Positions 9,928 through 43,179 of a stretch of DNA of 64,000 nt are shown piece after piece. The notes under the pieces were generated by a model. That model had not been told where the DNA came from and made no database searches. It was given only the letters and a program-made list of their open reading frames with translations. The stretch lies in contig CAYFKW010000016.1 of the NCBI GenBank assembly GCA_964343845.1, forward strand, positions 19,718-83,717, given 5' to 3'. The translations under genes and the position numbers were made by a program. The stretch is from an uncultured Desulfobacula sp. GTDB taxonomy: Bacteria > Desulfobacterota > Desulfobacteria > Desulfobacterales > Desulfobacteraceae. Numbering within the stretch: position 1 is the first letter of the stretch; each line of letters begins with the position of its first letter.

Positions 9928-9942
9928 GTCGTGATCCTCCTT

Positions 9943-10551: not shown

Positions 10552-10560
10552 GACGATGTC

Positions 10561-11193: not shown

Positions 11194-11215
11194 TTATATA
11201 ATCCTTTTATGCCGG

Positions 11216-24057: not shown

Positions 24058-24083
24058 TATCAACCAACGCCTCTGCCATTTTT

Positions 24084-24647
24084 TTATTTTGTGCCTGTAT
24101 CTATTAAGGTCTGCATTTCATGGATTAATTCAAGGTTGTTTTTAATGGGGTTCTTTTTTTCTATTGTTTGTTTTTCAAGTTCAAATTGCGCCATCAGCAT
24201 TTTTTTTTCGTTATCAGACAATTCTTTTTCCACCATGGGAAAAAACAGATGGTCTTCCATAAATATGTGTCGGCATAAAACAGAAACAAACGAAGCCAGA
24301 TTTGTCAACAGGCTGGTTATGGCAATTTCATTTCCCATCTCATACCCTTTAATGGATTTTTCAATTTTTGTTAGAAATTGACGACCAATCTCATGCTGAT
24401 GGCGGAGAGACCCTATTTCAAGATCGAGAAGGCCCTTTTTTTTCGTAGCTAGGAAACCGAACATCAGAAATTCTTCTTTATAGTGATGGTAGTTATCTGC
24501 ATAATTTCTAAAAAAAGGTACTGCAGCCTGAAAAAATTCTTTTGGCGGGTGTAAATTTTTTTCAATATTGTTCCTTGCATCCTTTAAAAAATCCAACCCC
24601 TGTAGGATGAAGACATGCTCATCAATTAACGCCTGCGTGATTTTCAT
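24084..24647 (-). CDS. Hemerythrin (HHE) domain protein
   Basis: EHVFI, HHYKEEFLMF, HQHEIGR, HIFMEDHLFFP di-iron ligand pattern. Confidence 0.9.
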   Translation of the reverse strand: MKITQALIDEHVFILQGLDFLKDARNNIEKNLHPPKEFFQAAVPFFRNYADNYHHYKEEFLMFGFLATKKKGLLDLEIGSLRHQHEIGRQFLTKIEKSIKGYEMGNEIAITSLLTNLASFVSVLCRHIFMEDHLFFPMVEKELSDNEKKMLMAQFELEKQTIEKKNPIKNNLELIHEMQTLIDTGTK

Positions 24648-25525: not shown

Positions 25526-28120
25526 TTATATTGGCATCACCTTTCGATAGACTTTATCAAACGGTAATGCAGTACCATCAATGGTTAAAAGATCATCTTC
25601 AACGGAAATGCCGAACAGTGCTTCATTCTCTTTTAAATATGGAAGAATGAGGTTCCAGTCTGCATCTGTGAGCTCAGCAAACTTGCCGCCATTCAGATGC
25701 TCATCAACTACCTTACATTCCGGGTCTCTTAAAAAGATGGCACCGCCTGATGCAAGTGAAAACAGGTTTGACCCCGGATACGGCATGTCAAGATCAATCA
25801 CATTTCCGTTATCATCAAATTTAATACCATTGACAATAACAAAGCCGCCGCCATTCAGGGGATCACCTGCCATAAACGATTCAGCAAGGTAATCTAGACA
25901 CGTACCATTAATCACAACCCTTGGGCCGCCTGTTGCATTTATCAGGGGACGACCCGCAGCATTGCCCAATATATAAACATCCCCGCCTTTAGCGCCATAC
26001 ATAAAGGTTTGACCGACATCTCCGTGGACGACGAATTTTCCGCGTTTCATGATCTGTCCCAATTGATCCTGGGCATTCCCGTGAACATGGATCTGCATAC
26101 CATCAATCCCGGATGCCATGTAATCGCCTGAACTGTCGTACACATCAAATCGTACATCATCTGTACCAGGTCCAAACCCGCAGCCTGTAAATCTCTGGCC
26201 TTTGTATCCATAGCAGATATATTGCTTCCAGCCCAATCGATAGGCGTTGTTAATCATCCTGGAATCGCAATCTTTGCCTTCGGGCTCGAATTCTCGGGCA
26301 TTTACAATGAGAATTTTTTCCTTACCTTCTGGTGCGCGTAAATCTTTTCTTGTTGCACGATCAATATATGCATACCGCTGGTTTTTACTGTCTCCAATTT
26401 TAGGTGAGGATTTAAATATGGATGTCAGGCTTTCTCTGATAATTTGGAGAACCGAACTCCTTTTCTTATTGCCTGTTGGAAACAATCTGTCGTTTAAATG
26501 GGAGAGAAGATCAATGCCCATTCTCTTTTTATCATCATTATCCTTGGCAAATCCTTCAATCAACCCGCAAAGCTGTTTTAATTCTTCAAAACTTAAACCG
26601 GCAATCTCAGAGATACAGGCTTGTTTTAACCCCTGCAGATCCTGTGCGTCAAAAAGTTCGGTTATCTTATCTGTCAACGCTTTGTTCTCTTTTGTCCGCC
26701 CTAAATCCAACGTTACATCAAAATGGATTTGACCTTCTGGTGTCTGCACAACCTCACCGAATTTATTCTGTGTAATGAGTTTTTTAGATCCATCCCCTTT
26801 TTCGGAATCTTTTACAGTAAATGTAAATGCACCGCCGTCAGTGGCACTTCCTCCTCTGGCATTCCAGTATTTATCTGCAATTGGACAAAATCTGCTGTCT
26901 TCTTCAGCAATACTCTGCAATGTGGCATCTATGGCCTGTTTTTCAGAACAGACAAGCCCGATTTGAACGTCATCTCTTTCCTGGAGTGCGAAGACCTGGG
27001 GTCTTAACATCGCTGTGTCTGTGATGCCGATCAGCTGAAGGAGGTCCTTGTAAGGATCATTCCTTGCAATAATAAAGAACCAGGGCCCGTCAGGTGAGCC
27101 TGTCATATGCTGGGATTGAATGTATTTATACACATCCTGTTTATGGGAGGGCAGGCAGTCAAAATCATACTCAGTCGTCGGTGCCAGGGCTTCAATAATA
27201 TATTCCAATGGATAGTTAAAGACGCGGTTATACAGATCCAGTAAAAGAATAGAGGTTTCCGTGTCTGTCAGAAACTGGGGATAGATATTATATTGATTCA
27301 GGTATTCACATACAGCATGATAATTTGCAAAATCACCATTATGCACCAACGCTTCGTGCATACCTGAGAAAGGATGTGCACCGCCTGGATGCCACAGCCT
27401 GCCCCTGGTGGGATACCGCTGATGGGCGATCCAGCCGTGGGCCCTGAAATCATCCAGACAATAATACTGTGTTGCCTGCTCAGCATAGCCAACCACTTTT
27501 AATATCATCACATTTCTTGCATGGGACATAACAAACGCCTGCTTATCACCAAGAGAGGCATAATACGTCTGATTTAACCGTGTTGAATTCTGAAAAACAA
27601 ATTCATCTTCTGCTTTTCGCGGGTCCATGCCATAGAAATCATTATATCGGATAAATTTCTCTAAAACATCTGGTTTGACACGTACAAAATACCGCCACAC
27701 ATCCGGTGGTTTTACATCAAGCCCGATAGAGGTGTAATCATCTATAGTGGGTGTTTTTTCTGATTTGTATATATCAAACATGGGGGTAATATTGGTGGAT
27801 TCAACCTGAGGGATGGCGTCATTATCCAGGTAGGCAACCTGCAGTAGATAATGGTCTTCCAGGACGTCCTGCGGTACGCCTAAATCACTGGCACTCAGTC
27901 CAACGGCAGCAATACCGCCGCCTTTACCATTCCCCCTGTTATGCATTTGGACAGAAGGTTCATAAATATGTTTGCCCGCAACAGGGATGTTGGCCATAAA
28001 ACCTGTTACACCGCATCCGCCTTCTTCATCACATTTGTTAACAGGTGTTTTGGTGTGGGGCAGCCGGCCCCTTGAAGCCAATATGTTGTTTATGATGTTA
28101 TCTGTATTTGTCTTCATCAT
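25526..28120 (-). CDS. Glutamate synthase-like protein: class II glutamine amidotransferase fused to GXGXG domain
   Basis: EEGGCGVTGF (Ntn Cys), HNRGNGKGGG, AHQRYPT, HPF, HNGDFAN, TDTE; C-terminal GXGXG repeats (GQRFTGCG, GNAQDQ, GDVGQTFMYGAKGG, GNAAGRP, ESFMAG). Confidence 0.88.
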   Translation of the reverse strand: MMKTNTDNIINNILASRGRLPHTKTPVNKCDEEGGCGVTGFMANIPVAGKHIYEPSVQMHNRGNGKGGGIAAVGLSASDLGVPQDVLEDHYLLQVAYLDNDAIPQVESTNITPMFDIYKSEKTPTIDDYTSIGLDVKPPDVWRYFVRVKPDVLEKFIRYNDFYGMDPRKAEDEFVFQNSTRLNQTYYASLGDKQAFVMSHARNVMILKVVGYAEQATQYYCLDDFRAHGWIAHQRYPTRGRLWHPGGAHPFSGMHEALVHNGDFANYHAVCEYLNQYNIYPQFLTDTETSILLLDLYNRVFNYPLEYIIEALAPTTEYDFDCLPSHKQDVYKYIQSQHMTGSPDGPWFFIIARNDPYKDLLQLIGITDTAMLRPQVFALQERDDVQIGLVCSEKQAIDATLQSIAEEDSRFCPIADKYWNARGGSATDGGAFTFTVKDSEKGDGSKKLITQNKFGEVVQTPEGQIHFDVTLDLGRTKENKALTDKITELFDAQDLQGLKQACISEIAGLSFEELKQLCGLIEGFAKDNDDKKRMGIDLLSHLNDRLFPTGNKKRSSVLQIIRESLTSIFKSSPKIGDSKNQRYAYIDRATRKDLRAPEGKEKILIVNAREFEPEGKDCDSRMINNAYRLGWKQYICYGYKGQRFTGCGFGPGTDDVRFDVYDSSGDYMASGIDGMQIHVHGNAQDQLGQIMKRGKFVVHGDVGQTFMYGAKGGDVYILGNAAGRPLINATGGPRVVINGTCLDYLAESFMAGDPLNGGGFVIVNGIKFDDNGNVIDLDMPYPGSNLFSLASGGAIFLRDPECKVVDEHLNGGKFAELTDADWNLILPYLKENEALFGISVEDDLLTIDGTALPFDKVYRKVMPI

Positions 28121-28135
28121 TTATTCAAGTCCTTA

Positions 28136-29680
28136 TTATAAAACCATTTTGTACTCAGGTGCCGGTTGGTATTTCTTTTTTTCTTCCTCATCCAGATAGT
28201 CAAGGTGAACCAGAAGATCTGAACGGCCGCGAAGCTCTTTAATACTTTTTAAACCATAGGTTCTTAAAATATCGCACCACTGTTTCCGCCAGGCCATATA
28301 CATATTGACCAGGCGCTGCTCAACATATTCTTCATCGGTCATATATCCGAGTTCCGGGTCTGTGGATGCGATACCACGTGCACAGCCGCGCCCGCTTTCA
28401 CAATTCCCGCATCTGACACATTCAACTGCAACAAGATCAGCAGTTCCGATGACACATCCATCAGCACCAAGCGCAATGGCTTTTGCAACATCGAGTCCGT
28501 TTCGGATTCCTCCGCTGGCAATCAAGGTAACCTTGTCTCTGGCGCCTTCTTCAACGAGAAATCTGTGGACTTTTGGAATAGCATATTCAATTGGCATTGC
28601 AATATTCTTTTTGGCGATATCAGGCGCAGCCCCTGTTCCGCCGTAACTGCCGTCTATATGAATAATATGGGCACCCGCGTAATAGGCACCAACTGCTACC
28701 ATGTCCACATCTGTCGGCGTAGACACTTTTATGGAGCATAATACATTGTTATTGATCTCTTTCATCCAGTCTACATGTTTTTTATGATCTTCAACTGAGT
28801 AAACAGAGTGGAATGGAAAGGGAGAAAAAAGAGAGGCGCCTACAACTGTTTCTCTCATTTTGGCAACGGCTTCAGTTACTTTTTCTCCTAAGAGATGTCC
28901 GCCCAATCCTGGCTTTGCCCCCTGGGCATATTTAAATTCCATGATGGGGCAGTGTTGTATTGTTTCCTCCCTGACGCCAAACAGTCCTGTTGCCACCTGT
29001 GTAATCACATGCTCTTTGTAGGGTAGGAATTCAGGCGGGTACCCACCTTCTCCTGTACAGGTGAGAGAATTAAGTCTTTTGGCTGCTCTTGCTCTGCCGA
29101 CAATGATAGATAACGCTGTAGACCCGTAAGACATACCGCCCCCATAACAGGGAATGGAAATGGTTTTTTCAGGTCTGCCGTCTCCTGTCTTGTTCAGTTC
29201 AATGCTGGTATCAATGTCTTCATCACTAATATCTATGGCAGTGCTGGGATCCGGTTCAATAAATCGCATTTTATCAAACCCGCCGCCAGAGTTGCCTAAA
29301 TTATACTCAAGATCTACATGGGGCAGCTCTCCGGTCTCTGCCATGGCAAAATGACCCAACAGCATATCTGGTGTCCACCGGTAATCTCCCATGGTGTCCA
29401 ATAAAGGGTTTTCTTTTAACACCATGGCATCTTCAGGGCAGTGTTCAATACAATAGTGATCGGTTTTTTTACAGTCAGGCCCCACGCAGTTGTGTTCAAC
29501 CGGTCGAAAGGGCGATTTATGATTGTCCGGCATGATGTGAACACCATGAGGGCAGAGCTCTGCACACTTACCGCAAGAAACGCATTTAGCATTTCTTTTG
29601 ACAATATATTTGCCGATGGTGTTTCGAAACCGTGAAGGTGTTTTTTTGATTTCAGGCAGTTTTATTTCTGAATTACTCAT
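28136..29680 (-). CDS. Glutamate synthase FMN-binding subunit (GltB2 type) with N-terminal ferredoxin
   Basis: CVSCGKCAELCP...CIEHCP; GGGMSYGS, TGEGG, QVATGLFGV, EFKYAQGAKPGLGGHL, SGGIR, ALGADG, CVRCGNC...C. Confidence 0.92.
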   Translation of the reverse strand: MSNSEIKLPEIKKTPSRFRNTIGKYIVKRNAKCVSCGKCAELCPHGVHIMPDNHKSPFRPVEHNCVGPDCKKTDHYCIEHCPEDAMVLKENPLLDTMGDYRWTPDMLLGHFAMAETGELPHVDLEYNLGNSGGGFDKMRFIEPDPSTAIDISDEDIDTSIELNKTGDGRPEKTISIPCYGGGMSYGSTALSIIVGRARAAKRLNSLTCTGEGGYPPEFLPYKEHVITQVATGLFGVREETIQHCPIMEFKYAQGAKPGLGGHLLGEKVTEAVAKMRETVVGASLFSPFPFHSVYSVEDHKKHVDWMKEINNNVLCSIKVSTPTDVDMVAVGAYYAGAHIIHIDGSYGGTGAAPDIAKKNIAMPIEYAIPKVHRFLVEEGARDKVTLIASGGIRNGLDVAKAIALGADGCVIGTADLVAVECVRCGNCESGRGCARGIASTDPELGYMTDEEYVEQRLVNMYMAWRKQWCDILRTYGLKSIKELRGRSDLLVHLDYLDEEEKKKYQPAPEYKMVL

Positions 29681-29683
29681 AAT

Positions 29684-31102
29684 TTATCCTACATCTATAG
29701 ATACTTTGCGTTCACCGAAAATTGGTGCAAAACTTTCTTTTTCAAGGTCTTCAAACCACATGGATCGTCCAACTTCTCCCCTTAACCGTCTGGCTTCCCT
29801 CAACCCCATGGCACCAAGCATTTCAAGCATTTGATTCCGCCAGGCACCCATAAGGTTTATGATCCGATTGCTGCCATATTCAGAATCAATAGATTCCATT
29901 TCAACGGGACAGGAAAGATCCATTTCACATCGGCCGCACAACCGGCATTCCATGGCAATAAGAAGCGGCAGGTCAATTGAAACGCCGTCAGCACCACAGA
30001 TAATGGATTTGTTGACATGTTCCGCCAAACAGATACCGCCTGAGGCAAGGATATTAATCTGCTGTCGGGTTGCTGCATCGATTAGTGCCAGGTGGATATC
30101 CCGCAGCATATCCTTGATAAACCTCGGGTTGTCAGATTCAAGTTCTCTTCCCTGGCTGTCCGCGTAAACGTGGAGGGTATCAATCTCTTCTTTTGAAAGG
30201 TCGACACAAATTTGTGCATAATCAAGATCTGCTTTTAACTCAAGTCCAACACTGATCACCAGGTTTTCATTCATAGCCTTAAGCTGTTTGAAACAGGTTT
30301 CAATGCCGGGCTCATATTCAATCTCAACCATGTCAACGATGGACAGAAGTTTTGGATAATTTCCAAAGTTCTCTTTTTTTACCATTGGAACGATAGATTT
30401 TGAAAAAGACATCATGTCTTCATAAACATCTGCTGCCTTTACAAACATCTTTGTCCCAATAGCCTGGGCAGCAGTTAACATCGAAGCAAGAACGGATTTG
30501 CTGAAAACACCAAAATTGGGTTGTTGAAACAGAATTGGAAGCGGGATTTCAAGTATGGGTTTAACATCTACAGCAAGTGAACCGTCTGAATTAAACGATA
30601 ATCTTTCAGGCCTTCTTGAAAGCTCTATGCAGGTATTGATGTATTCCCGGCCATGGATACCGTCCCGTGTGGGGCGAACAATTTCTGACATGTCTGTCCA
30701 CATGGAATCAAATCCCTTTCCCACAAAACGGCCTCGATACCCTGCGCCGGAAACAGGGATGCTTCCTGTATGCGCCTGGTACCAGGTTCGGTTGAGGACA
30801 TCAGGTGTCCAATAGTCATCTCCAATTTCTCTGTACTCCGGGTTGACCACTCTTGAAAAAATTCCTTTGGTACATTCCTGGATACATCTAAAGCACGAAT
30901 TACACGTATACAAATATTCGGGCTCCTCCATTTTGCTCATGTGAAGATAGTTGTCTTTGAAGATGTCATATACACATTTTTTCTTTACACACTCTTTACA
31001 GCTGCCGGCACAGTTTTCCCTGAATTCTATGGTTGAGTATTTCCCAACAGGGTAAAACCGTGGTGGTGCTGCCTTTGTGTGAATATGATATTTTTGAGGC
31101 AT
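29684..31102 (-). CDS. Degenerate glutamate synthase FMN-domain paralog with N-terminal Fe-S motifs
   Basis: CAGSCKECVKKKC and CNSCFRCIQEC; GFDSMWTD, SGGICLAEHVNKSIICGADG, CRLCGRC, REARRLRG. The GGMS, TGEGG and QGAKPG motifs are absent. Confidence 0.82.
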   Translation of the reverse strand: MPQKYHIHTKAAPPRFYPVGKYSTIEFRENCAGSCKECVKKKCVYDIFKDNYLHMSKMEEPEYLYTCNSCFRCIQECTKGIFSRVVNPEYREIGDDYWTPDVLNRTWYQAHTGSIPVSGAGYRGRFVGKGFDSMWTDMSEIVRPTRDGIHGREYINTCIELSRRPERLSFNSDGSLAVDVKPILEIPLPILFQQPNFGVFSKSVLASMLTAAQAIGTKMFVKAADVYEDMMSFSKSIVPMVKKENFGNYPKLLSIVDMVEIEYEPGIETCFKQLKAMNENLVISVGLELKADLDYAQICVDLSKEEIDTLHVYADSQGRELESDNPRFIKDMLRDIHLALIDAATRQQINILASGGICLAEHVNKSIICGADGVSIDLPLLIAMECRLCGRCEMDLSCPVEMESIDSEYGSNRIINLMGAWRNQMLEMLGAMGLREARRLRGEVGRSMWFEDLEKESFAPIFGERKVSIDVG

Positions 31103-31122
31103 ACGTACTTATCCTTAAATCT

Positions 31123-32031
31123 TTATTTTAGTCCAGCCTGTTCAACGATGCCGGCTACGGCGTCTTCCCACTCGATGGCCATAATATGAACCCCATGAAC
31201 CCCTTTAAGTTCTTTAAGTTCCTGTATGGTTTCAAGACAGATTTTAATGCCTTCACCTGCCTGATCCTTTTTATCAACACCGTCCATCCTTTGAATAATC
31301 TCTTCAGGCACATCCATGCCAGCCACTTTGCTGTTCATGTATTTTGCCATGCCGGCAGACCGAAGTGGTGTAACGCCACCTAAAATAAATACTTTTTCAG
31401 TTAACCCTTCTTCATTGGCCTGTCTGATCCACTCTTTAAACCTTGCCATGTTGTAAATACACTGGGTCTGGATGAAATCAACGCCGGCATCAATTTTTTT
31501 AGCAAGTCTGATAACTCTATATTCAAAAGGATCCGCAAAAGGGTTGGCTGCTGCACCAATAAACATCTGCGGGGCAACATCGAGATCAAATCCACTCATG
31601 TCTTTGCCTGTATCCCGCATATCACGAACCGTTCTAATCAGGTTTACAGAATCAATATCAAAAACATTCATGGCATCCGGCTGGCTGCCAAAATTTTGAT
31701 GATCCCCGGACAGGCATAGTATATTACGGATACCTAAAGAATAAGCACCCATAATATCGGATTGGATGGCAATGCGGTTCCTGTCCCTTACGACCATCTG
31801 CATCACAGGTTCTAAACCAGCCGAAACCAGATGGGCAGACGCAGCAATACTTGACATTCTTACGATAGCTGTCTGGTTATCGGTGACATTGACAGCATCA
31901 ACATGCCCATTTAATAATTTAATTTTTTTTTCAATGACCTCTTTATTTGCGCCCCTTGGAGGGCCGCATTCACCTGTTACTGCAAATTCGTTGTTAAGTA
32001 ATTTTTCGTGGAGTTTACTGATGGCATTCAT
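31123..32031 (-). CDS. metF: Methylenetetrahydrofolate reductase, FMN/FAD subunit
   Basis: ECGPPRG, VNVTDNQTA, CLSGDH, AKKIDAGVDFIQTQ, GVHIMA. Confidence 0.93.
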   Translation of the reverse strand: MNAISKLHEKLLNNEFAVTGECGPPRGANKEVIEKKIKLLNGHVDAVNVTDNQTAIVRMSSIAASAHLVSAGLEPVMQMVVRDRNRIAIQSDIMGAYSLGIRNILCLSGDHQNFGSQPDAMNVFDIDSVNLIRTVRDMRDTGKDMSGFDLDVAPQMFIGAAANPFADPFEYRVIRLAKKIDAGVDFIQTQCIYNMARFKEWIRQANEEGLTEKVFILGGVTPLRSAGMAKYMNSKVAGMDVPEEIIQRMDGVDKKDQAGEGIKICLETIQELKELKGVHGVHIMAIEWEDAVAGIVEQAGLK

Positions 32032-32696
32032 ATGATGTGGTCCTCCCTGATCAATTTTCTAGGTCCACCGGAAAGACTGGTATTCCAGTTTTTTGGAGGG
32101 ATATAGGTTTTTAAATTATCCATCTGGCCTAACGTACGAAGACGTTCAATTATCATGTGCCATGCACACTCTGTATTCGGGTCAATTTCGCAAAGCCCTT
32201 CCTGGGAACCGCCGCAGGGACCGTTTAAGAGTTTTTTGGAGCATCGGGTCACAGGGCAGACACCGCCAAAAGTTGCCAACTCACAGTTTCCGCACCCGGA
32301 ACATTCTTCAGTAAAAATACCGTGGCTCTCCTGTATGCCGATAAATGTGGTGTTTACACCAGGCAATACCACTTCTTTTTCAAATCGCTTGGCCATTGCC
32401 TGTACACCTGCACCGCAGGCAAGAGACAAAATAGCATCATTTCTTGCAATCGATTCCGCTGCTTCCTGAATAAATTCATTTTCGCATTGACGTTCGATGG
32501 TAAATTCTTCAATTTCAATGGGTCTTGCCATTTTGTTAAAACTCAGTCTCAGGGCAGATGCTAAAACAGCAACTTCGTCTTCACCGCCGGCAAAGCATGT
32601 TTTTACACAAGTGCCGCAGCCAAGAATCAAGACCTTTTTATAAGGTTCAACAAGTTCAATAATTTCGTTAATGGGTTTTTGACTACCGGTTATCAT
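32028..32696 (-). CDS. metV: MetV (MTHFR-associated Zn/Fe-S subunit)
   Basis: GCGTCVKTC, RQCE, ACGAGVQ, CSGCGNC...CPVTRCSKKLLNGPCGG...C...C; overlaps metF by 4 nt. Confidence 0.88.
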   Translation of the reverse strand: MITGSQKPINEIIELVEPYKKVLILGCGTCVKTCFAGGEDEVAVLASALRLSFNKMARPIEIEEFTIERQCENEFIQEAAESIARNDAILSLACGAGVQAMAKRFEKEVVLPGVNTTFIGIQESHGIFTEECSGCGNCELATFGGVCPVTRCSKKLLNGPCGGSQEGLCEIDPNTECAWHMIIERLRTLGQMDNLKTYIPPKNWNTSLSGGPRKLIREDHII

Positions 32697-32764
32697 TCTT
32701 TAACTCCGTTTTTTGGAAATATTTAAGAAAAGACCAGATTAAAGTAAGGTACGTTGCCATTATC

Positions 32765-32808
32765 TTTGATTTCATTGATTAGGGGAGTGATCAAACAATG
32801 AAATCAAA
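32765..32808. other. 13-bp perfect inverted repeat between mvhD and metV
   Basis: TTTGATTTCATTG (32765-32777) / CAATGAAATCAAA (32796-32808). Confidence 0.6.
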
Positions 32809-32866
32809 AATTAAACAATACCTCACTTTAAACCTGGCTTTTATAATAACATCAATAGGGATGGTA

Positions 32867-33271
32867 TTAATTAAAATGATTTAAAGCAGGATTCGGACCG
32901 ATCGTTTCAAGCGATGCTATTGTGTCCTGAATAATATCTTTAATCGACCCGCTGTCTTTCGCAGTTGTATTGAAAATGTTCAACCGCCCGCTGTCCATTC
33001 CAATGTCATCAAGGATAGTTTTTACATAATCAACCCGTTTCTTTGCCCGGATACTGCCTTCAGCATATCTGCAGCCCTTATTGGGACAAACAAGAACGAT
33101 GACAGCATCTGCACCCGCTTCAAAAGCTCTGAGCAGATGGACATCTTTTGTCATGGAGGAACAAGCCATTTTAACAGTTTTTGCTTCACAACCGTCAAAC
33201 ATCGAGGCTGTCTCTTCAAACGAGTTTAAACAATGAAACAGCGTAAGTTTTGGTGTTTTGTTAATGTTCAT
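32867..33271 (-). CDS. mvhD: MvhD-like [2Fe-2S] protein (methyl-viologen hydrogenase delta subunit family)
   Basis: Four Cys in MvhD spacing (FHC, MACSS, LVC, GCRY) and the motif AFEAGADAV...RAKKRV...IGMDSGRL; ATG 33271 preferred over TTG 33283. Confidence 0.85.
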   Translation of the reverse strand: MNINKTPKLTLFHCLNSFEETASMFDGCEAKTVKMACSSMTKDVHLLRAFEAGADAVIVLVCPNKGCRYAEGSIRAKKRVDYVKTILDDIGMDSGRLNIFNTTAKDSGSIKDIIQDTIASLETIGPNPALNHFN

Positions 33272-33291
33272 TTTTTTCCCCAAAATTAAAT

Positions 33292-33334
33292 AAAAAAAGG
33301 CATTCGCCCAGGTTAATATTGGGAAAACGCCTTT
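33292..33334 (-). terminator. Leader intrinsic terminator (attenuator) upstream of mvhD
   Basis: Minus strand reads AAAGGCGTTTTCCCA-ATATTAACC-TGGGCGAATGCCTTT-TTTT; its 5' arm is the loop and 3' arm of ANTAR hairpin P2. Confidence 0.85.
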
Positions 33335-33368
33335 GTTTTCTTTAATTTTGCTAATACGCCGTTGTATT
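33323..33368 (-). promoter_or_regulatory. ANTAR-binding dual-hexaloop RNA motif
   Basis: Minus strand: P1 AATAC-AACGGC-GTATT (33368-33353), 12-nt linker, P2 GAAAAC-AAAGGC-GTTTTC (33340-33323). Both loops have A at position 1 and G at position 4. Confidence 0.85.
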
Positions 33369-33381
33369 TAGCTGGATTCTC

Positions 33382-33410
33382 AGCTTAGTGGCAACGGTTA
33401 AAAATGTCAA
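33382..33410 (-). promoter_or_regulatory. sigma70-type promoter of the mvhD-metV-metF-glt operon
   Basis: TTGACA (33410-33405), 17-nt spacer, TAAGCT (33387-33382); P1 starts about 14 nt downstream. Confidence 0.75.
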
Positions 33411-38400: not shown

Positions 38401-39126
38401 TTAAGGAGAATTTTTGGTAAAAATTTCATCAGACAGAATGACAGCCTCTGCAACTTCACGAATTGATTTTCTCGAATCCATGCTTTTTTTACGAATCCAG
38501 CCATAGGCATCATCACCTGTCATTTTATGCTGGTCCATTAAAATTTCTTTTGCCTGTTCTATCTTTTTCCGCGCCTCTAATTCTTCCTGGATCACCCTTG
38601 TTTTCACCATGAGCTCTGTGTTTACAATCGCCACAGCGCTTTGATTGGCAACCGCTCTGAGAAGATTGACTTCAGTTGGAGAAAAATCATGAGGGGAAGC
38701 TGTAAAACAGTTTAAGACACCAATGACTTTCTCTTCTTTGGTGATCAAAGGAATGCCCACCATGGAGACAAGTCCCAGCTTTTTTGCCATTTCTTTTTCT
38801 TTAAATCGATCTGATTCCAGGACATCGTCTAATATCAGGGGCTTTTTGTGGGTTACAACATAACCGACAACCCCTTCATCCAGATTAAGTGCCCGGTCTT
38901 TTATATAGTCCGGAGAAATGGACTGGGTCGCTTTAAGCCGGATCTTTGGTGGTTTCTCATCTTCATTAACAATCCATAAAGAGCAGATCTCCACCCCTGT
39001 AACCTTAGCGGTTACCATGACAATCAGTTTCAACAGGTCTTCAATAAACAGATCTGATGTGATTGCCTGGCTGATATCAGTTAATGCTTTAATATACCCG
39101 TCATATGTCTGTTCTGATTTTTTCAT
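38401..39126 (-). CDS. GAF-ANTAR one-component RNA antiterminator
   Basis: GAF domain (EGVVGYV, SMVGIPL, IGVLNCFT, QSAVAI) followed by ANTAR (LEARKKIEQAKEILM...DAYGWIRKKSMDSRKSIREVAEAV). Confidence 0.92.
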   Translation of the reverse strand: MKKSEQTYDGYIKALTDISQAITSDLFIEDLLKLIVMVTAKVTGVEICSLWIVNEDEKPPKIRLKATQSISPDYIKDRALNLDEGVVGYVVTHKKPLILDDVLESDRFKEKEMAKKLGLVSMVGIPLITKEEKVIGVLNCFTASPHDFSPTEVNLLRAVANQSAVAIVNTELMVKTRVIQEELEARKKIEQAKEILMDQHKMTGDDAYGWIRKKSMDSRKSIREVAEAVILSDEIFTKNSP

Positions 39127-39200: not shown

Positions 39201-41531
39201 CTAAAATGCGTTGTTTGGTATTAAATCCCAGATTCCACAAGGGCAGGCACCTTTGCAGAAACCACACCCAATGCACAGGTCCGCGTCTACTTTATATTCA
39301 AAAGCATTTTTTTTGATACTGATTCTTTCAATGGCACCTTCCGGGCAGATGGCAACACAGATGCCACAATCCCTGCATTTCCCACAGGAAGCACAGTTCG
39401 CACCACAGTCAGCCAGGTTGTCTGCCGTCATTTTAGGATCATAATACTCAAGACTGATCCGTTGTTTATCCACCTGAACCGGATGGTCAATTTTGTCCAG
39501 ATTTTTGCCTTCAATGATTTTATCAATACTTTGTGCGGCTCTTCTACCCGCACCAATGGCATCTGTAATCAAACCCGGGCCCACAACATCCCCGATTGCA
39601 AAAATATTTCGATCTGAGGTCCGGTTGAACTCATCTACTTTGACAAACCCATTTTCAATTTGAATCGTGTCGTCCAGAAAATCAAGATCAGGAACATCGC
39701 CAATCGAGAGCACGATGGTGTCTGCCTTTAACAATTGACCATCCTGGAGTAAAACGCCTTTTTTAGTGATTTCTTTTGTGAAACAGGGCCATTTGAATTT
39801 TGCACCAACTGCTTCGGCGTCTTCTTTTTCTTTTCCAAAAGCCAGCGGTTTTTGAATATCAATCATGGTGATATCCCTGGCGCCCAGACGGTGCGCTTCG
39901 GTTGCCACATCACAACCGACATTGCCCGCGCCGATGATTACCATTGCCTTGCCTGGTTTTACTTTTCCCTTTTTTGATTTTTCCAGAAAATCATTTGCAA
40001 AAGTTGCCTGTTCAATGCCTGGAATCGGCAGGGATCTTGGTTTTTTTGCGCCAGCGGCAATGATGGTAAAATCGTAATCAAGTATGATTTTTGAGAATTT
40101 TTTTTGAGTGATTTTCTGTTTTACTTTGATGTTCGGAATGAACGCCTTAACACGATTGAGTTCAGTTTCAAGTGTCTCTTTTGGTATCCGTGAACCCGGT
40201 ATGACAGACGCAATTTTCCCGCCAATCTGCGAGCCTGTTTCAAATAAAGTAGCATCATGCCCCATAAGAGTTAAATGCCAGGCAGAAGAGATACCACCAG
40301 GCCCTGAACCGATAACTGCAATTTTCTTTTTACTTTTTTTACCAGGTTTTGGCAGTTTTACTTTTTCACCTGCTTTGCCTAAAAGCCTGACATCAATGGG
40401 CGACATATAATTTAAATTCCGGGTACAGGATGCCATACATGGACTTGGGCAGAGATATCCACAAACAGTTGCAGGAAACGGTGAATATTCAAGCCCCATA
40501 GAAATGGCTTCATCAATATTGTCCAGGCGGACCATATTCCATCTTTCCTGAACAGGAATGCCTGTGGGACAAGCCGCCTGGCAGGGCGCAATATATCTTC
40601 CCTGTTCCCAAACAGGGATGTATCGTCTCAGGTCTCCTCTGGTGATCACTGGAATGGTGCCCCTCTGTGTTTCCTGAAGGTCACCTATCAGACCGCCTGG
40701 CCCAAGCTCCCTGTCCCACACATCCGCTCTGAATTTTGCCATACTCATTCTTTCGGGCGCTTCTGTTTTCTCCTGGGGAGATTTTGCTTCAAGCAGCTGC
40801 CATTGAGTACGGTTTGAAAATGATGTCAGCAACTTGTCTTTTTTAATTTTGGCCAGAAAAATTTTAAGGCCTTTTTGAAGCCAGTTCCATTCCTCGTCTG
40901 TGAGTAAACTGAGTTTGGCATCCTTTTGGGAGAATTCATCAACACTGCCGTGAACAAAAATTTTACCACCCACCATCCCAATAAGGGGCCGATACCCGAG
41001 GATTTCGTCCCTGGGATCAATATTGTGACCGCAGATAACAGCGATGCCGCCCGCCATAAACTCACCAAAGTAATCTCCAGCAGATCCCAGCACCCAGAGT
41101 TCCGGCGGATCAAATCTTGGGTTCCTTTTTGTCATGGTCATGCCCCTGGCACCGATGGAACCTGCAATATACACTTTGCCCTGGGCCGCGCCATTCATTA
41201 CACCGTTGGAGGCGTTGCCATGAACGATAATCTCAGCACCTGCATTCAGCCATCCAACGTCATCTGATGCTGGTCCCATGATTTCGATCAAGGTATTTGC
41301 ACTCCCGAGAGATCCTGTTCTCTGCCCGGACTGGCCCGTGATTCTTATATGGGTGTTTTCTGAACCAGCATCCCAAAGACGTCCCCCGATACCGTGTTGG
41401 CCAAAGCCTTGTATTTCAATGTTTCTACGACCGTTTTTAATATGATGATGAATCATTTCTTCCAGGACGCGGGAAGGTATTCTTTTCCCATCCTTTTTTC
41501 CGGGCAGTTTTATAAATGCATCTTTTTTCAT
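39201..41531 (-). CDS. Glutamate synthase GXGXG domain fused to GltD-like NAD(P)H/FAD oxidoreductase and ferredoxin
   Basis: GQHGIGGR, GSAGDYFGEFMAGG; CQAACP, CGYLCPSPC; GSGPGG, GAGNVGCD, AIGDV; CASCGKCRDCGIC and CIGCGFCKGACP. Confidence 0.9.
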   Translation of the reverse strand: MKKDAFIKLPGKKDGKRIPSRVLEEMIHHHIKNGRRNIEIQGFGQHGIGGRLWDAGSENTHIRITGQSGQRTGSLGSANTLIEIMGPASDDVGWLNAGAEIIVHGNASNGVMNGAAQGKVYIAGSIGARGMTMTKRNPRFDPPELWVLGSAGDYFGEFMAGGIAVICGHNIDPRDEILGYRPLIGMVGGKIFVHGSVDEFSQKDAKLSLLTDEEWNWLQKGLKIFLAKIKKDKLLTSFSNRTQWQLLEAKSPQEKTEAPERMSMAKFRADVWDRELGPGGLIGDLQETQRGTIPVITRGDLRRYIPVWEQGRYIAPCQAACPTGIPVQERWNMVRLDNIDEAISMGLEYSPFPATVCGYLCPSPCMASCTRNLNYMSPIDVRLLGKAGEKVKLPKPGKKSKKKIAVIGSGPGGISSAWHLTLMGHDATLFETGSQIGGKIASVIPGSRIPKETLETELNRVKAFIPNIKVKQKITQKKFSKIILDYDFTIIAAGAKKPRSLPIPGIEQATFANDFLEKSKKGKVKPGKAMVIIGAGNVGCDVATEAHRLGARDITMIDIQKPLAFGKEKEDAEAVGAKFKWPCFTKEITKKGVLLQDGQLLKADTIVLSIGDVPDLDFLDDTIQIENGFVKVDEFNRTSDRNIFAIGDVVGPGLITDAIGAGRRAAQSIDKIIEGKNLDKIDHPVQVDKQRISLEYYDPKMTADNLADCGANCASCGKCRDCGICVAICPEGAIERISIKKNAFEYKVDADLCIGCGFCKGACPCGIWDLIPNNAF

Positions 41532-41544
41532 TCTTATACCTCAT

Positions 41545-43179
41545 TTAAACCACATATTTTATGCTGAGTCGTTCAGCGGCAGCAGGATCATCGATTCCAA
41601 GCGCGTCAGACATCCCAATTGGAAGGGATGTTGAACGGCCGAGCGGGGCGACTATTTTTTTAAGTTCAGTATCAAAGGAAAGATAAAGATCAACAATTCT
41701 CTGGGCAACATCTTCAGGGTCCAGTCGCCTGTACAGTCTTGGGTCCTGAGAGGTAATCCCTTTTGGACAGATGCCGACATTGCAGACATTGCAGCGGTCT
41801 TCTTCTGTTCCAACACAACCTGCAGCAGCCTGCATTGCATATTTTCCAATCTGGATCCCACTTGCACCCAGCATGATCAAAGCGGCTGCATTGGCAGCAA
41901 GATTGCCATTTTTACCAATACCCCCGCCGGCAAAAATCGGAATTTCATTTTGTTTGCCTATTTTTATCAGGTTTAAATAATTATCCCTGATGCAGGAGGC
42001 AATCGGGTGACCCATGTGGTCCATGGAAACAGTATAGGCAGCGCCCGTTCCGCCATCTTCCCCGTCAATGGCAAGGGCAGATGCGTAATCATTCCGGGTT
42101 AAATTATTCAACACAGCCAGTGAAGTAGAAGATGCGGATATTTTTGGATACACCGGTACCCTGAACCCCCATGCCATGGACATGGACAAAATCATTTTTG
42201 CCACTGACTCTTCGATTGAGTATTGGGTCTGGTGCGTTGGGGGACTGGGCAGACTGATGCCTTGAGGAACCCCACGGATGGCAGCGATAAGTTTATTGAC
42301 TTTGTGCCACATCAAAAGGCCGCCGTCTCCTGGTTTCGCCCCCTGACCATATTTGATTTCAATGGCGCAGGGATCTTCTTTCATGTGTGGAATCGCATGA
42401 ATAATCTCATCCCAGCCAAAATATCCGGATGCGATTTGCAGGATAACATATTTTAAAAACCTGGATTTCAGCAGCCGGGGCGGGCAGCCGCCTTCTCCTG
42501 TTGACATCCTGACCGGCATTCCCAACGTTTCATTTAAATAGGCAACCCCCATTTGAAGCCCTTCCCACATACTGGGAGACAAAGCACCAAAGGACATACC
42601 CCCTATGATTAAAGGATAGATTTCTCTAACAGGCGGAATCCACCCTTTTTCTTTCAATTGCTTCATGTTTTCTTTTGGAGAAAGAACTCTGCCCAGTAAT
42701 GTTCTCATTTCAAACTCATGGCGGCCGGCATCAAGTGCTGGATCTGTCAGCATGGAAATCCGGGTAAACTTGATTCTATCTAAAATTGAGCCGGAGACAT
42801 TTCTTCTGCCGCCGCGCCGCCTTGGGATACCCTGTTGATTGATATGAAATTTGAGACGATCCAAACCTGGATTTTTCACCGGTGTTATGGCATCATTGGG
42901 GCACACCATAGTGCACATGGCACAGCCGATACAGGCGTTTTCAACTTGCGTTTTCTGTTGTATCCCATAAAAAGTTCCATATTGGTTGGAATGGTCTGTC
43001 TCTTTATTTACAGAGGTTTTAATCTTCCTCTTTTGAAAAACAGACAGATCAATGGCCTTAACCGGGCACACAGCAGTGCACTGGCCGCACAATGTGCACC
43101 GGTCATTGCTGTAACGAATCTGCCAGGGCAGATCATTTAAGCTTAAAGCGGAAGGTTCAAGGCTTCTGTTTGACGACAT
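41545..43179 (-). CDS. Glutamate synthase FMN-binding subunit with N-terminal 2x[4Fe-4S]
   Basis: CTLCGQCTAVCP, CIGCAMCTMVCP, GGMSFGALS, STGEGG, QIASG, EIKYGQGAKPGDGG, C...CNVCNVGICP. Confidence 0.92.
   Translation of the reverse strand: MSSNRSLEPSALSLNDLPWQIRYSNDRCTLCGQCTAVCPVKAIDLSVFQKRKIKTSVNKETDHSNQYGTFYGIQQKTQVENACIGCAMCTMVCPNDAITPVKNPGLDRLKFHINQQGIPRRRGGRRNVSGSILDRIKFTRISMLTDPALDAGRHEFEMRTLLGRVLSPKENMKQLKEKGWIPPVREIYPLIIGGMSFGALSPSMWEGLQMGVAYLNETLGMPVRMSTGEGGCPPRLLKSRFLKYVILQIASGYFGWDEIIHAIPHMKEDPCAIEIKYGQGAKPGDGGLLMWHKVNKLIAAIRGVPQGISLPSPPTHQTQYSIEESVAKMILSMSMAWGFRVPVYPKISASSTSLAVLNNLTRNDYASALAIDGEDGGTGAAYTVSMDHMGHPIASCIRDNYLNLIKIGKQNEIPIFAGGGIGKNGNLAANAAALIMLGASGIQIGKYAMQAAAGCVGTEEDRCNVCNVGICPKGITSQDPRLYRRLDPEDVAQRIVDLYLSFDTELKKIVAPLGRSTSLPIGMSDALGIDDPAAAERLSIKYVV

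What the first reader, a model, noticed from the sequence alone, without database searches (positions are those of the whole stretch)
25526..33410. Candidate new redox system: MvhD-MetV-MetF co-transcribed with a three-gene glutamate-synthase-like module
Seen: one minus-strand run of mvhD, metV, metF, degenerate GltB2, GltB2 and GATase-GXGXG, with gaps of -4, 20, 3 and 15 nt from metV onward and a single promoter/attenuator in front. No hdrA and no GltD-like NAD(P)H subunit lie in the cluster. Established: MetVF with MvhD normally partners HdrABC (Moorella-type methylene-THF reductase), and glutamate synthase needs NAD(P)H via GltD or ferredoxin. Inference: the flavin/Fe-S Glt modules occupy the place of Hdr, so electrons from methyl-THF oxidation in the oxidative Wood-Ljungdahl pathway could drive glutamate synthesis directly. 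An alternative is N-methylglutamate-synthase-like chemistry (MgsABC are homologous to the same three domains) linking methylamine nitrogen to the folate C1 pool.
Basis: partly seen in the sequence, partly recalled or inferred. Interest (0 to 1): 0.85.

Follow-up and report, generated by a model that had tools for sequence, protein, structure and literature searches.

The report
Glutamate synthase wired to MetVF
Six co-directional genes in this sulfate reducer most likely build one nitrogen-regulated glutamate synthase (the enzyme that puts ammonia-derived nitrogen into amino acids); instead of the usual NADPH subunit it carries iron-sulfur adaptors and a methyl-folate enzyme, and I found no paper on this combination although it is widespread.

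Summary
mvhD, metV, metF, a catalytically degenerate GltB2 paralogue (472 aa), an intact ferredoxin-fused GltB2 (514 aa) and a GATase+GXGXG fusion (864 aa) lie head to tail on the minus strand (25526-33271), with the stated gaps.

The six-gene order is kept in every one of about 45 related loci that hold enough upstream DNA. Across the phylum the invariant core is MvhD-472-514-864. What varies is the gene set in front of it: MetVF (this window), nothing further, Hdr+MetVF, or an FAD-oxidase/Fe-S dehydrogenase (separate in Chloroflexota, fused into a 2,530-aa protein elsewhere).

The neighbours are nitrogen-assimilation genes (glnA, gdhA, amtB-PII, carAB). The operon is fronted by a covarying ANTAR dual-hairpin antiterminator.

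The genome also has a canonical HdrCBA-MvhD-MetVF cluster and a GltD-containing glutamate synthase. The MetF and MvhD here are therefore dedicated paralogues.

Best reading: a split glutamate synthase with a swapped electron-input module, probably fuelled by methyl-THF. The donor is inferred, not shown. The N-methylglutamate alternative is not supported.

This scan has already noted the same system on other DNA (at least 32 notes).

The parts
33382..33410 (-). Sigma-70-like promoter, TTGACA (33410-33405), 17-nt spacer, TAAGCT (33387-33382)
   Evidence: Read from the sequence. The TTGACA box is kept at the same distance in Desulfobacula-like relatives. It is not listed by the consensus scan because the -10 box matches only 3 of 6. 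No transcript data.
33292..33368 (-). ANTAR-type antiterminator leader: P1 hairpin 33368-33353 (loop AACGGC), 12-nt linker, P2 hairpin 33340-33323 (loop AAAGGC), and a terminator (about 33333-33292, U7 tail) whose 5' arm overlaps P2
   Evidence: The MFE fold shows the terminator (z = -4.3). The dual A..G.. hexaloop hairpins followed by a T-run recur upstream of mvhD in 31 of 44 related loci, about 23 of them clean. 91% of cells pair and 7 of 11 pairs carry compensatory changes, well above the shuffled and slid controls. The architecture matches the ANTAR target defined by Ramesh et al. 2012 (PMC3369931).
32867..33271 (-). mvhD: MvhD/FlpD-type iron-sulfur adaptor (134 aa), of the glutamate-synthase-linked type
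   Evidence: Pfam FlpD 2.5e-21. It precedes the 472-like gene, directly or with metV(F) in between, in every phylum-wide locus examined. In the tree it lies outside the Hdr-MetVF MvhD clade (support 0.94).
32697..32866 (-). Structured mvhD-metV spacer: long extended hairpin with invariant apical CACUCCCC, then a U-rich run
   Evidence: MFE -49.6 kcal/mol, z = -6.2. Conserved in 8 Desulfobacula-like loci, with 14 of 36 pairs compensatory. Function unknown.
32028..32696 (-). metV: Fe-S subunit of MetVF-type methylene-THF reductase (222 aa)
   Evidence: Pfam DUF5981/MTHFR_C 2e-36. Overlaps metF by 4 nt.
31123..32031 (-). metF: methylene-THF reductase catalytic subunit (302 aa), a dedicated paralogue
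   Evidence: Pfam MTHFR 2.5e-40, full length. Aligns over its whole length with solved MTHFRs. 62% identical to the Hdr-linked MetF of the same genome. The glutamate-synthase-linked MetFs of this type form a clade with support 1.0.
29684..31102 (-). gltX (472 aa): catalytically degenerate GltB2 paralogue that keeps three Fe-S motifs; probable electron-wire/scaffold subunit
   Evidence: Pfam Glu_synthase over residues 332-434 only. The family alignment keeps two ferredoxin-type Cys motifs, C-x2-C-x2-C-x5-C and GGI..GAD. It lacks GGMSxGS, CTGEGG, the roughly 45-aa EFKYAQGAKPGxGG loop and DGSYGGTGAAP. The AF2 core is a TIM barrel like GltS and glycolate oxidase. It is fused to GltB2 or to an FAD-oxidase/Fe-S module in other lineages.
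28136..29680 (-). gltB2 (514 aa): 2x[4Fe-4S] ferredoxin domain plus the FMN/2-oxoglutarate (synthase) domain of glutamate synthase
   Evidence: Pfam Glu_synthase 2.2e-86 plus Fer4. Aligns with A. brasilense GltS residues 873-1170, keeping GEGG, E-x-K-x-AQGAKPG-x-GG and the cluster cysteines.
25526..28120 (-). gltB1-B3 fusion (864 aa): class-II (Ntn) glutaminase domain with a 35-residue leader before Cys36, a helical linker, and a GXGXG beta-helix
   Evidence: Pfam GXGXG 1.4e-10 and GATase_6 5e-5. EEGGC36GV, HQR235YPT, HN261G and TD286TE are invariant in 19 sequences down to 55% identity. The best fold matches of the AF2 model are GltS alpha subunits, then PurF, GFAT and AsnB.
38401..39126 (-). 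GAF-ANTAR regulator: candidate antiterminator protein for the leader above (association inferred)
   Evidence: Pfam GAF_2 1e-20 plus ANTAR 7.5e-20. The GAF domain resembles the N-terminal GAF of NifA (NCBIfam TIGR01817, 7e-16).
39201..44273 (-). Second, conventional split glutamate synthase: 376-aa ORF (presumed GATase), 544-aa Fer4+Glu_synthase, 776-aa GXGXG+GltD-like+Fer4
   Evidence: Pfam. It shows that the organism has an NAD(P)H-type enzyme besides the MetVF-linked one. The 376-aa ORF has no Pfam or NCBIfam hit; it starts MC..., as Ntn glutaminases do.

Best explanation
The six genes form one nitrogen-regulated operon for a split glutamate synthase whose reductant-input module has been exchanged.

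Shown by sequence and comparison:
- The 864-aa protein supplies the glutaminase and the GXGXG beta-helix.
- The 514-aa protein is the FMN/2-oxoglutarate site with its own Fe-S clusters.
- The 472-aa protein is a dead copy of it that keeps only Fe-S sites.
- MvhD is an obligatory companion of these three genes.

Inferred: MetF oxidises 5-methyl-THF (E0' about -200 mV). Electrons then pass through the MetV clusters, MvhD and the three clusters of the 472-aa protein to the FMN of GltB2. There, 2-iminoglutarate, made from 2-oxoglutarate and glutamine-derived ammonia, is reduced to glutamate. That step is exergonic (couple about -130 mV, pulled further by glutamine hydrolysis). MetVF+MvhD+472 would thus play the part of GltD, ferredoxin or F420H2 dehydrogenase in known glutamate synthases.

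Expression is gated by an ANTAR antiterminator, probably the GAF-ANTAR protein encoded next to the conventional glutamate synthase operon.
For: Gene identities and tight junctions.

Catalytic competence:
- 514 aa keeps the GltS 2-oxoglutarate/FMN loop and cluster cysteines.
- 864 aa keeps the Ntn catalytic motifs, invariant in 19 relatives, and folds like the GltS alpha subunit.
- 472 aa is dead but Fe-S-rich.

One functional unit:
- The six-gene order is kept in all informative loci among 80 relatives at 64-88% identity, and in 9 further families of the phylum.
- Fusions exist: 472+514 in one protein and all Glt parts in one 2,530-aa protein (L135, L136).

Swappable donor module directly upstream of the 472-like gene:
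- MetVF.
- An FAD_binding_4/FAD-oxidase_C/Fer4 dehydrogenase, either separate (Dehalococcoidales L166, L167) or fused (P0144, P0158, L135, L136). FAD-linked oxidases act as donors.

Dedicated paralogues: the MetF clade has support 1.0 and is separate from the Hdr-linked MetFs of the same genomes. MvhD lies outside the Hdr-type clade.

Nitrogen context:
- Equivalog-level glnA lies next to the module in 20 of 100 loci.
- Other neighbours are gdhA, nadE, carAB and amtB-PII-glnA.
- The ANTAR leader is covarying and of the kind tied to nitrogen genes, including glutamate synthase (PMC3369931).

Methyl-THF is available: the genome encodes AcsB and a separate Hdr-MetVF set.
Against: - No biochemical, transcript or interaction data.
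- MetVF is not universal. Many lineages have mvhD-472-514-864 alone, and family f18 has metV without metF. MetF is therefore dispensable for the core enzyme.
- MvhD is classically an adaptor to HdrA. Some relatives carry hdrA/hdrC in the same cluster (L122, L123, L127, L130), which fits an Hdr-mediated scheme.
- MetVF enzymes of acetogens work physiologically in the reductive direction, so the direction of electron flow here is assumed.
- The 170-nt structured spacer after mvhD, with its U-rich tail, could uncouple mvhD from the rest.
- The AF2 models are of moderate confidence (pLDDT 71) and no multimer model could be made.
Confidence: 0.5

Rival explanations
1. Hdr- or ferredoxin-coupled hub. 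MvhD docks the complex onto an HdrA-type flavoprotein (or free ferredoxin feeds the ferredoxin domains of the 472/514 proteins). Glutamate synthesis and methylene-THF reduction are then two high-potential acceptors on a shared Fe-S backbone. Alternatively, the glutamate synthase is the exergonic arm of a flavin-based bifurcation or confurcation that includes MetVF. In either case methyl-THF is not the donor for glutamate synthesis.
For: - MvhD is the invariant companion of the Glt genes even where metVF is absent.
- Relatives have hdrA/hdrC-mvhD-metV-metF-mvhD-472-514-864 (L127, L130) or 864-hdrA-mvhD-metV-metF (L122, L123) in one cluster.
- This genome has several HdrA-like and MvhD genes.
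- Both GltB2-type proteins carry N-terminal 2x[4Fe-4S] ferredoxin domains.
- Earlier notes of this scan describe ten-gene Hdr+MetFV+glutamate-synthase operons in other phyla (not tested here).
Against: - No Hdr gene lies in this operon or in the roughly 45 close relatives.
- The MvhD here is not of the Hdr-MetVF clade.
- In Dehalococcoidales and in the giant fusions the upstream module is a plain FAD-linked dehydrogenase with neither Hdr nor MvhD. That points to simple donor-to-acceptor wiring.
Confidence: 0.27
2. Two independent enzymes that are merely co-expressed: an ordinary (ferredoxin-type) split glutamate synthase and a spare MetVF, for example for methionine/SAM supply during nitrogen limitation. 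They share a promoter but no electrons.
For: - The Glt core occurs without metVF in many lineages.
- serine hydroxymethyltransferase, another folate enzyme, follows the cluster in L119, so folate and nitrogen genes may simply be co-regulated.
Against: - The invariant order metV-metF-472, with short junctions (15-40 nt in the closest relatives, up to roughly 450 nt in some more distant ones), is kept over large evolutionary distance.
- MetF and MvhD form dedicated, long-diverged paralogue clades.
- Neither enzyme has its own reductant-binding subunit in the operon.
- A different dehydrogenase sits in the same position elsewhere, sometimes fused.
Confidence: 0.13
3. N-methylglutamate-synthase-like chemistry (MgsABC homologues) that links methylamine nitrogen to the folate C1 pool.
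For: MgsA, MgsB and MgsC are homologous to the same three glutamate synthase domains (established knowledge). A folate enzyme is adjacent.
Against: - The recurrent neighbouring ligase scores above the equivalog cut-off for type I GlnA (560 against 429 bits). This leaves little room for a gamma-glutamylmethylamide synthetase, although no model of that enzyme was compared.
- No sarcosine-oxidase-like N-methylglutamate dehydrogenase genes appear in the annotated neighbourhoods, though many ORFs in the other loci were left unannotated.
- The Mgs reaction is redox-neutral and needs no MvhD, MetV or extra Fe-S subunit.
- The context is amtB-PII-glnA-gdhA-carAB.
Confidence: 0.03

Closest known systems
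Archaeal-type (split) glutamate synthase: separate GltB1 glutaminase, ferredoxin-fused GltB2 FMN subunit and GltB3 GXGXG protein
   Same: Same three catalytic and structural domains on separate polypeptides. GltB2 carries an N-terminal 2x[4Fe-4S] domain. The catalytic motifs are conserved.
   Different: - GltB1 and GltB3 are fused into one 864-aa protein.
- An obligatory dead GltB2 paralogue (472 aa) and an MvhD protein are added.
- A MetVF pair is encoded inside the operon.
Bacterial NADPH-glutamate synthase GltBD (A. brasilense, PDB 1EA0/2VDC/6S6S; B. subtilis 7MFM) and ferredoxin-GltS (Synechocystis 1OFD)
   Same: The best sequence and fold matches for the 514-aa and 864-aa proteins. Glutaminase, FMN/2-oxoglutarate site, Fe-S cluster next to FMN and beta-helix are shared. 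An N-terminal leader before the catalytic Cys is also known from bacterial GltB (my knowledge).
   Different: - No GltD (NADPH/FAD) subunit and no single alpha chain.
- No recognisable central domain; the 472-aa barrel may stand in for it (untested).
- The cluster motif next to FMN has four cysteines (C-x2-C-x2-C-x5-C) rather than the three of a [3Fe-4S] site.
MetFV-HdrABC-MvhD methylene-THF reductase of Moorella thermoacetica (Mock et al. 2014, from my knowledge; cited in PMC5736913)
   Same: mvhD-metV-metF gene triplet. MetVF lacks its own NAD(P)H site and depends on partner Fe-S/flavoproteins. A genuine copy of that system exists in this genome (L005).
   Different: - Here HdrABC is absent from the operon, and a glutamate synthase follows metF.
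- MetF and MvhD belong to clades separate from the Hdr-linked ones.
F420-dependent glutamate synthase of methanogens/ANME (FrhB-type module joined to GltS domains; mentioned in PMC9012536)
   Same: Precedent for swapping the electron-input module of glutamate synthase for a different dehydrogenase.
   Different: The donor module there is FrhB/F420H2. Here it is MvhD-MetVF, or FAD-oxidase/Fe-S in relatives, together with the dead GltB2 paralogue.
N-methylglutamate synthase MgsABC
   Same: Homologous GATase-like, GXGXG and FMN-barrel proteins.
   Different: - Mgs is redox-neutral and has no Fe-S input chain.
- It sits with gmaS and mgd genes in methylamine users; none of these is present here.

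Membership tests
Glutamate synthase (GOGAT) | FMN/2-oxoglutarate 'synthase' domain with the GEGG and E-x-K-x-AQGAKPG-x-GG loop and the Fe-S cluster cysteines next to FMN | tested here: met
   The 514-aa protein scores Pfam Glu_synthase 2.2e-86. The phmmer alignment to 1ea0/2vdc residues 873-1170 shows these motifs conserved. They are invariant across 13 orthologues.
Glutamate synthase (GOGAT) | Class-II (Ntn) glutaminase domain with catalytic Cys, Arg, Asn-Gly oxyanion hole and Asp | tested here: met
   C36 (EEGGCGV), R235 (HQRYPT), N261-G262 (HNGDF) and D286 (TDTE) are invariant in 19 sequences. The fold search ranks GltS alpha subunits first, then PurF, GFAT and AsnB. Residues were mapped by motif, not by a structure-based alignment. 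Removal of the 35-residue leader is assumed.
Glutamate synthase (GOGAT) | C-terminal GXGXG beta-helix domain | tested here: met
   Pfam GXGXG 1.4e-10 over residues 654-804. Similar to the FwdC beta-helix.
Glutamate synthase (GOGAT) | A defined reductant input: GltD/NAD(P)H, ferredoxin or F420H2 | tested here: not met
   There is no GltD, FrhB or NAD(P)-binding domain in the six genes. MvhD, MetV, MetF and the 472-aa Fe-S protein take that place. Direct ferredoxin use cannot be excluded.
Glutamate synthase (GOGAT) | Catalyses glutamine + 2-oxoglutarate + 2 e- -> 2 glutamate | not testable with these tools
   Needs an enzyme assay.
Moorella-type MetFV-HdrABC-MvhD methylene-THF reductase | MetF + MetV + MvhD encoded together | tested here: met
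   Pfam MTHFR, DUF5981 and FlpD.
Moorella-type MetFV-HdrABC-MvhD methylene-THF reductase | HdrA (FAD, bifurcating), HdrB and HdrC in the same cluster or complex | tested here: not met
   They are absent from the operon and from about 45 close relatives. They are present in a separate cluster on contig C26 with its own mvhD-metV-metF.
ANTAR-regulated leader (Ramesh et al. 2012) | Two short hairpins with hexanucleotide loops carrying A at position 1 and G at position 4, a short linker, and P2 overlapping an intrinsic terminator | tested here: met
   Loops AACGGC and AAAGGC, a 12-nt linker, and the terminator's 5' arm overlapping P2. Conserved with compensatory changes. Definition taken from PMC3369931. 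Protein binding was not tested.
N-methylglutamate synthase MgsABC | Genomic association with gmaS and N-methylglutamate dehydrogenase (mgdABCD); no redox input needed | tested here: not met
   The neighbouring ligase is an equivalog-level type I GlnA. No mgd-like genes appear in the annotated loci. An extensive Fe-S input chain is present.

The most novel reading that the evidence does not exclude
The MvhD-MetVF-glutamate synthase assembly is an energy-coupling device and not a simple donor-acceptor pair. The strongly exergonic, glutamine-driven reduction of 2-iminoglutarate would be used, by flavin-based bifurcation or confurcation at MetF, at GltB2 FMN or at a docked HdrA, to pull the otherwise unfavourable oxidation of methyl-THF. 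Part of the electrons would be pushed onto ferredoxin or NAD+. If so, the glutamate synthase would be a physiological partner of the kind long sought for Hdr/MvhD-linked MetVF reductases, and nitrogen assimilation would be linked to energy conservation in Wood-Ljungdahl organisms.
Probability: 0.12. Interest if true: 0.9.

Novelty: new variant of a known kind. Interest (0 to 1): 0.72.

Why it matters
Glutamate synthase is the main gate for nitrogen into biomass. Only NAD(P)H-, ferredoxin- and F420-dependent forms are described.

The form found here has three unusual features:
- an obligatory dead FMN-subunit twin;
- an MvhD adaptor;
- an exchangeable dehydrogenase module (MetVF in this window).

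It is present in about a third of the 401 sampled Desulfobacterota genomes and in Dehalococcoidales, organisms that dominate anoxic sediments.

If methyl-THF is the reductant, nitrogen assimilation in complete-oxidising sulfate reducers draws electrons straight from the Wood-Ljungdahl methyl branch, at a potential too positive to reduce NAD(P)+. That would also give MetVF-type reductases, whose physiological redox partners are still debated, a concrete and testable partner.

Cultured strains carry the cluster. Desulfobacula toluolica Tol2 has an 86%-identical 864-aa protein. The species Desulforapulum autotrophicum is represented here by a genome from a metagenome, L038. Experiments are therefore feasible.

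Tried and rejected
- Literature: five full-text searches combining MvhD, MetVF, methylene-THF reductase, glutamate synthase, Desulfobacula and Desulfobacterota found no paper on this linkage. A sixth search found only the ANTAR paper. Passages read in PMC9012536, PMC2702500, PMC5736913, PMC6085437, PMC7325909 and PMC6925170 were unrelated.
- Rfam scan of 24600-45500 found nothing relevant.
- A naive regex scan of the genome for dual A..G.. hairpins was unspecific: 216 hits, 26 under the stricter rule. I replaced it with a covariance model, which found one further good site.
- The promoter/terminator consensus scan of the operon gave counts at shuffle level and no convincing internal signal.
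- PDB sequence search of the 864-aa protein found only FwdC for the GXGXG part. The glutaminase needed a fold search.
- The fold search of the 472-aa model returns generic FMN TIM barrels and GltS.
- The first tree run failed on the script machine and was redone with FastTree.
- A wider per-family census of the upstream neighbour was cut short: the fetch from genomes and the genome search were closed.
- The N-methylglutamate synthase reading was considered and rejected (see rival explanations).

Full report
**1. What is in the sequence**

On the minus strand lie six ORFs (mvhD start read):
- mvhD 32867-33271
- metV 32028-32696
- metF 31123-32031
- a 472-aa ORF 29684-31102
- a 514-aa ORF 28136-29680
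- an 864-aa ORF 25526-28120

The mvhD-metV gap is 170 nt.

Pfam gives:
- FlpD/MvhD
- DUF5981 (MetV)
- MTHFR
- Glu_synthase over the last third only of the 472-aa protein
- Fer4 plus a full Glu_synthase domain (2.2e-86) for the 514-aa protein
- GXGXG plus a weak class-II GATase hit for the 864-aa protein

NCBIfam agrees.

**2. Setting in this genome**

The best relatives of the 864-aa protein are from Desulfobacula (86% to D. toluolica).

The window holds a second, conventional split glutamate synthase at 39201-44273. Its GXGXG protein is fused to a GltD-like NAD(P)H/FAD module. A GAF-ANTAR gene follows at 38401-39126.

The assembly has four MTHFR hits. One of them, on contig C26, belongs to a canonical hdrC-hdrB-hdrA(1031 aa)-Fe/S-mvhD-metV-metF cluster. 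Its MetF is 62% identical to the window's.

AcsB is present.

The organism therefore has a Wood-Ljungdahl methyl branch with its own Hdr-linked MetVF, and an NAD(P)H-type glutamate synthase. The six genes studied here come in addition to both.

**3. Conservation of the linkage**

Among the best 80 loci (64-88% identity), every locus with enough upstream DNA (about 45) has mvhD-metV-metF-472-514-864 in the same order and orientation. The one exception is L076, where only a remnant-sized gap lies between metV and the 472-like gene. Their record titles name Desulfobacula, Desulforapulum autotrophicum, Desulfosarcina, Desulfatitalea, Desulfobacterium sp. N47, Eth-SRB2 and a few bins labelled otherwise.

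In an even sample of 401 genomes of the phylum, 134 have a match to the 472-aa protein. About 115 of these are full-length at 41-64% identity.

**4. The invariant core and its variable front**

Neighbourhoods of 49 phylum-wide loci show that the constant unit is mvhD-472-514-864. What stands in front varies:

- (i) metV-metF between mvhD and the 472-like gene. This is the window type, seen in 9 anonymised families besides the close relatives.
- (ii) Nothing further (for example L119-L121, L124-L126).
- (iii) metV without metF (L131, L114).
- (iv) An Hdr set as well: hdrA-hdrC-mvhD-metV-metF-mvhD-472-514-864 in L127 and L130, and mvhD-472-514-864-hdrA-mvhD-metV-metF in L122 and L123.
- (v) A single ORF of 2,528-2,544 aa that reads FAD-oxidase + Fer4 + 472-like + GltB2 + GATase + GXGXG (L135, L136).

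The representative search adds fusions of 472+514 (about 1,000 aa) and of FAD_binding_4/FAD-oxidase_C/Fer4 with the 472-like protein.

In Dehalococcoidales the operon is FAD-oxidase/Fe-S (about 620 aa), then 472-like, GltB2 and GATase/GXGXG, with amtB, P-II and glnA downstream.

The fusions show that the three Glt-like proteins work as one enzyme. They also show that the gene just upstream of the 472-like subunit is an exchangeable dehydrogenase module.

**5. Is it a glutamate synthase?**

The 514-aa protein aligns with residues 873-1170 of the A. brasilense alpha subunit. It keeps GEGG, E-x-K-x-AQGAKPG-x-GG and the cluster cysteines, here as C-x2-C-x2-C-x5-C.

In the 864-aa protein, four motifs are invariant across 19 sequences down to 55% identity: EEGGC36GV, HQR235YPT, HN261G and TD286TE.
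- From my knowledge of Ntn amidotransferases, these are the nucleophile, the arginine, the oxyanion-hole Asn-Gly and the Asp that binds the alpha-amino group.
- A leader of about 35 residues before the Cys is also usual for bacterial GltB.

Its AF2 model (pLDDT 71.6) matches GltS alpha subunits best, then PurF, GFAT and AsnB.

The 472-aa family keeps two ferredoxin-type Cys motifs, the cluster motif next to the barrel and GGI..GAD. It has lost GGMSxGS, CTGEGG, a loop of about 45 residues with the 2-oxoglutarate/FMN residues, and DGSYGGTGAAP. Its modelled core is an FMN-type TIM barrel. It is best read as an electron-wire or scaffold subunit.

**6. Nitrogen context and regulation**

A gene scoring above the equivalog cut-off for type I glutamine synthetase lies beside the module in many lineages. 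GS type III does so in others. A glnA lies near the module in 20 of 100 loci, among them MetVF-type loci (L129, L134) and a giant-fusion locus (L135). Other neighbours are gdhA, nadE, carAB and serine hydroxymethyltransferase.

Upstream of mvhD the window has, in order:
- TTGACA-17-TAAGCT;
- hairpin P1, 33368-33353, loop AACGGC;
- a 12-nt linker;
- hairpin P2, 33340-33323, loop AAAGGC;
- a U7 terminator whose 5' arm overlaps P2.

The scan for two A..G.. hexaloop hairpins followed by a T-run scored in 31 of 44 related leaders; about 23 of these are clean cases. On 20 of them, 91% of cells pair and 7 of 11 pairs show compensatory changes, against 33-54% paired in slid controls.

This is the ANTAR target architecture of Ramesh et al. 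2012. Those authors found such sites mainly before nitrogen genes, including glutamate synthase genes (PMC3369931).

A covariance model built from these leaders finds one more good site in this genome, before a 552-aa ORF with a weak Glu_synthase domain.

The GAF domain of the window's GAF-ANTAR protein resembles the GAF of NifA. I know that domain as a 2-oxoglutarate sensor. That this protein is the regulator, and what it senses, are inference.

**7. Dedicated paralogues**

In a MetF tree, the 19 glutamate-synthase-linked MetFs of the window type form a clade with support 1.0. It is separate from the Hdr-linked or metV-only MetFs of the same genomes. The 472-514-fused type and the Hdr+glutamate-synthase type form two further clades.

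In an MvhD tree:
- The Hdr-MetVF MvhDs form one clade (support 0.94).
- All glutamate-synthase-linked MvhDs lie outside it.
- MvhDs that precede metV group with MvhDs that directly precede the 472-like gene (support 0.98-0.99).

MvhD is short, so I treat this as consistent with the model, not as proof.

**8. Mechanism**

Shown: a complete, apparently active glutamate synthase without any NAD(P)H module, always accompanied by MvhD and a dead, Fe-S-rich GltB2 twin, here with a private MetVF.

Inferred: methyl-THF -> MetF flavin -> MetV clusters -> MvhD/472 clusters -> GltB2 clusters and FMN -> 2-iminoglutarate.

Thermodynamically this is downhill. From textbook values as I recall them, the CH2-THF/CH3-THF couple is about -200 mV and the 2-oxoglutarate+NH4+/glutamate couple about -130 mV, with glutamine hydrolysis on top.

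The FAD-oxidase module in the same position in other lineages supports a donor role, because such enzymes oxidise 2-hydroxy acids at a similar potential.

The main rival is that MvhD connects the enzyme to an HdrA-type module or to ferredoxin, and that MetVF is a second acceptor or a bifurcation partner. The Hdr-containing variants keep this alive.

Independent co-expressed enzymes and Mgs-like chemistry are less likely, for the reasons given under the rival explanations.

**9. Comparison and novelty**

The system works like a glutamate synthase and meets its catalytic membership features. It fails the 'known reductant module' feature. It shares mvhD-metV-metF with the Moorella-type reductase but lacks Hdr.

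No paper on it was found in the searched library.

The scan itself has met the same system repeatedly on other DNA. Those notes reach similar readings. Here I re-derived independently:
- the conservation;
- the dead-twin anatomy;
- the FAD-oxidase variant;
- the Hdr variants.

I added:
- the coexisting canonical systems in one genome;
- the paralogue trees;
- the ANTAR leader with covariation;
- the metV-only variant.

I class it as a new variant of a known kind.

**10. Limits**

- There are no expression, interaction or activity data.
- The models are of moderate confidence.
- Family and genus labels of the genome sample are anonymised, and kin are not independent.

Noticed in passing
window 32697-32866 (-): The 170-nt mvhD-metV spacer folds into a long extended hairpin (z = -6.2) with an invariant apical loop C(A/U)CUCCCC. 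A U-rich run follows, then a small hairpin over the metV GGAG. The element is conserved with compensatory changes in 8 Desulfobacula-like loci. It could be an internal attenuator, a processing/stability element or an anti-Shine-Dalgarno device.
   Followed up: partly
own genome C2:94266-94315 (-), L143 6509-8167 (-): The only other good hit of the ANTAR dual-hairpin model in this genome (E 2e-5) precedes a 552-aa ORF with a weak Glu_synthase barrel and no NCBIfam name. A similar 543-aa ORF heads the gdhA-glnA-mvhD-472-514-864 cluster in L119 (1282-2913). This is an unnamed FMN-barrel family that seems to belong to the nitrogen regulon.
   Followed up: partly
L131 8143-15173; L114: In one family of the phylum (code f18) the cluster is mvhD-metV-472-514-864, with no metF between metV and the 472-like gene. 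MetV may therefore serve the glutamate synthase independently of MetF.
   Followed up: partly
L135 3966-11552 (-); L136 3092-10726 (-): Single ORFs of 2,528 and 2,544 aa fuse FAD-oxidase, Fer4, 472-like, GltB2, GATase and GXGXG parts: a complete 'one-chain' version of the enzyme. In L135 it sits next to glnA.
   Followed up: partly
window 38401-39126 (-): A GAF-ANTAR protein is encoded 74 nt after the conventional glutamate synthase operon. Its GAF domain resembles the N-terminal GAF of NifA (7e-16). It is a candidate sensor of nitrogen status that would act on the leader of the MetVF-linked operon 5 kb away.
   Followed up: partly
window 8716-14414 (-): An Rnf-type complex lies in the same window. 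Only the two largest genes were checked (RnfC/NqrA-like 13086-14414, RnfD 11922-13085); the neighbouring smaller ORFs were not. The cell can therefore interconvert ferredoxin and NADH, which is relevant to the ferredoxin-donor rival.
   Followed up: no
window 21568-24647 (-): A hemerythrin gene is followed by an 831-aa protein that combines cNMP-binding, Ser/Thr kinase and PP2C phosphatase domains. It lies just downstream of the operon (Pfam) and is unrelated to the finding.
   Followed up: no
L082, L086, L023, L028: Some loci 65-77% identical to the Desulfobacula-type operon come from bins labelled Dehalococcoidia or Actinomycetota. This suggests mis-binning or recent transfer. The genuine Dehalococcoidales version (L166, L167) has a different front module.
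   Followed up: no
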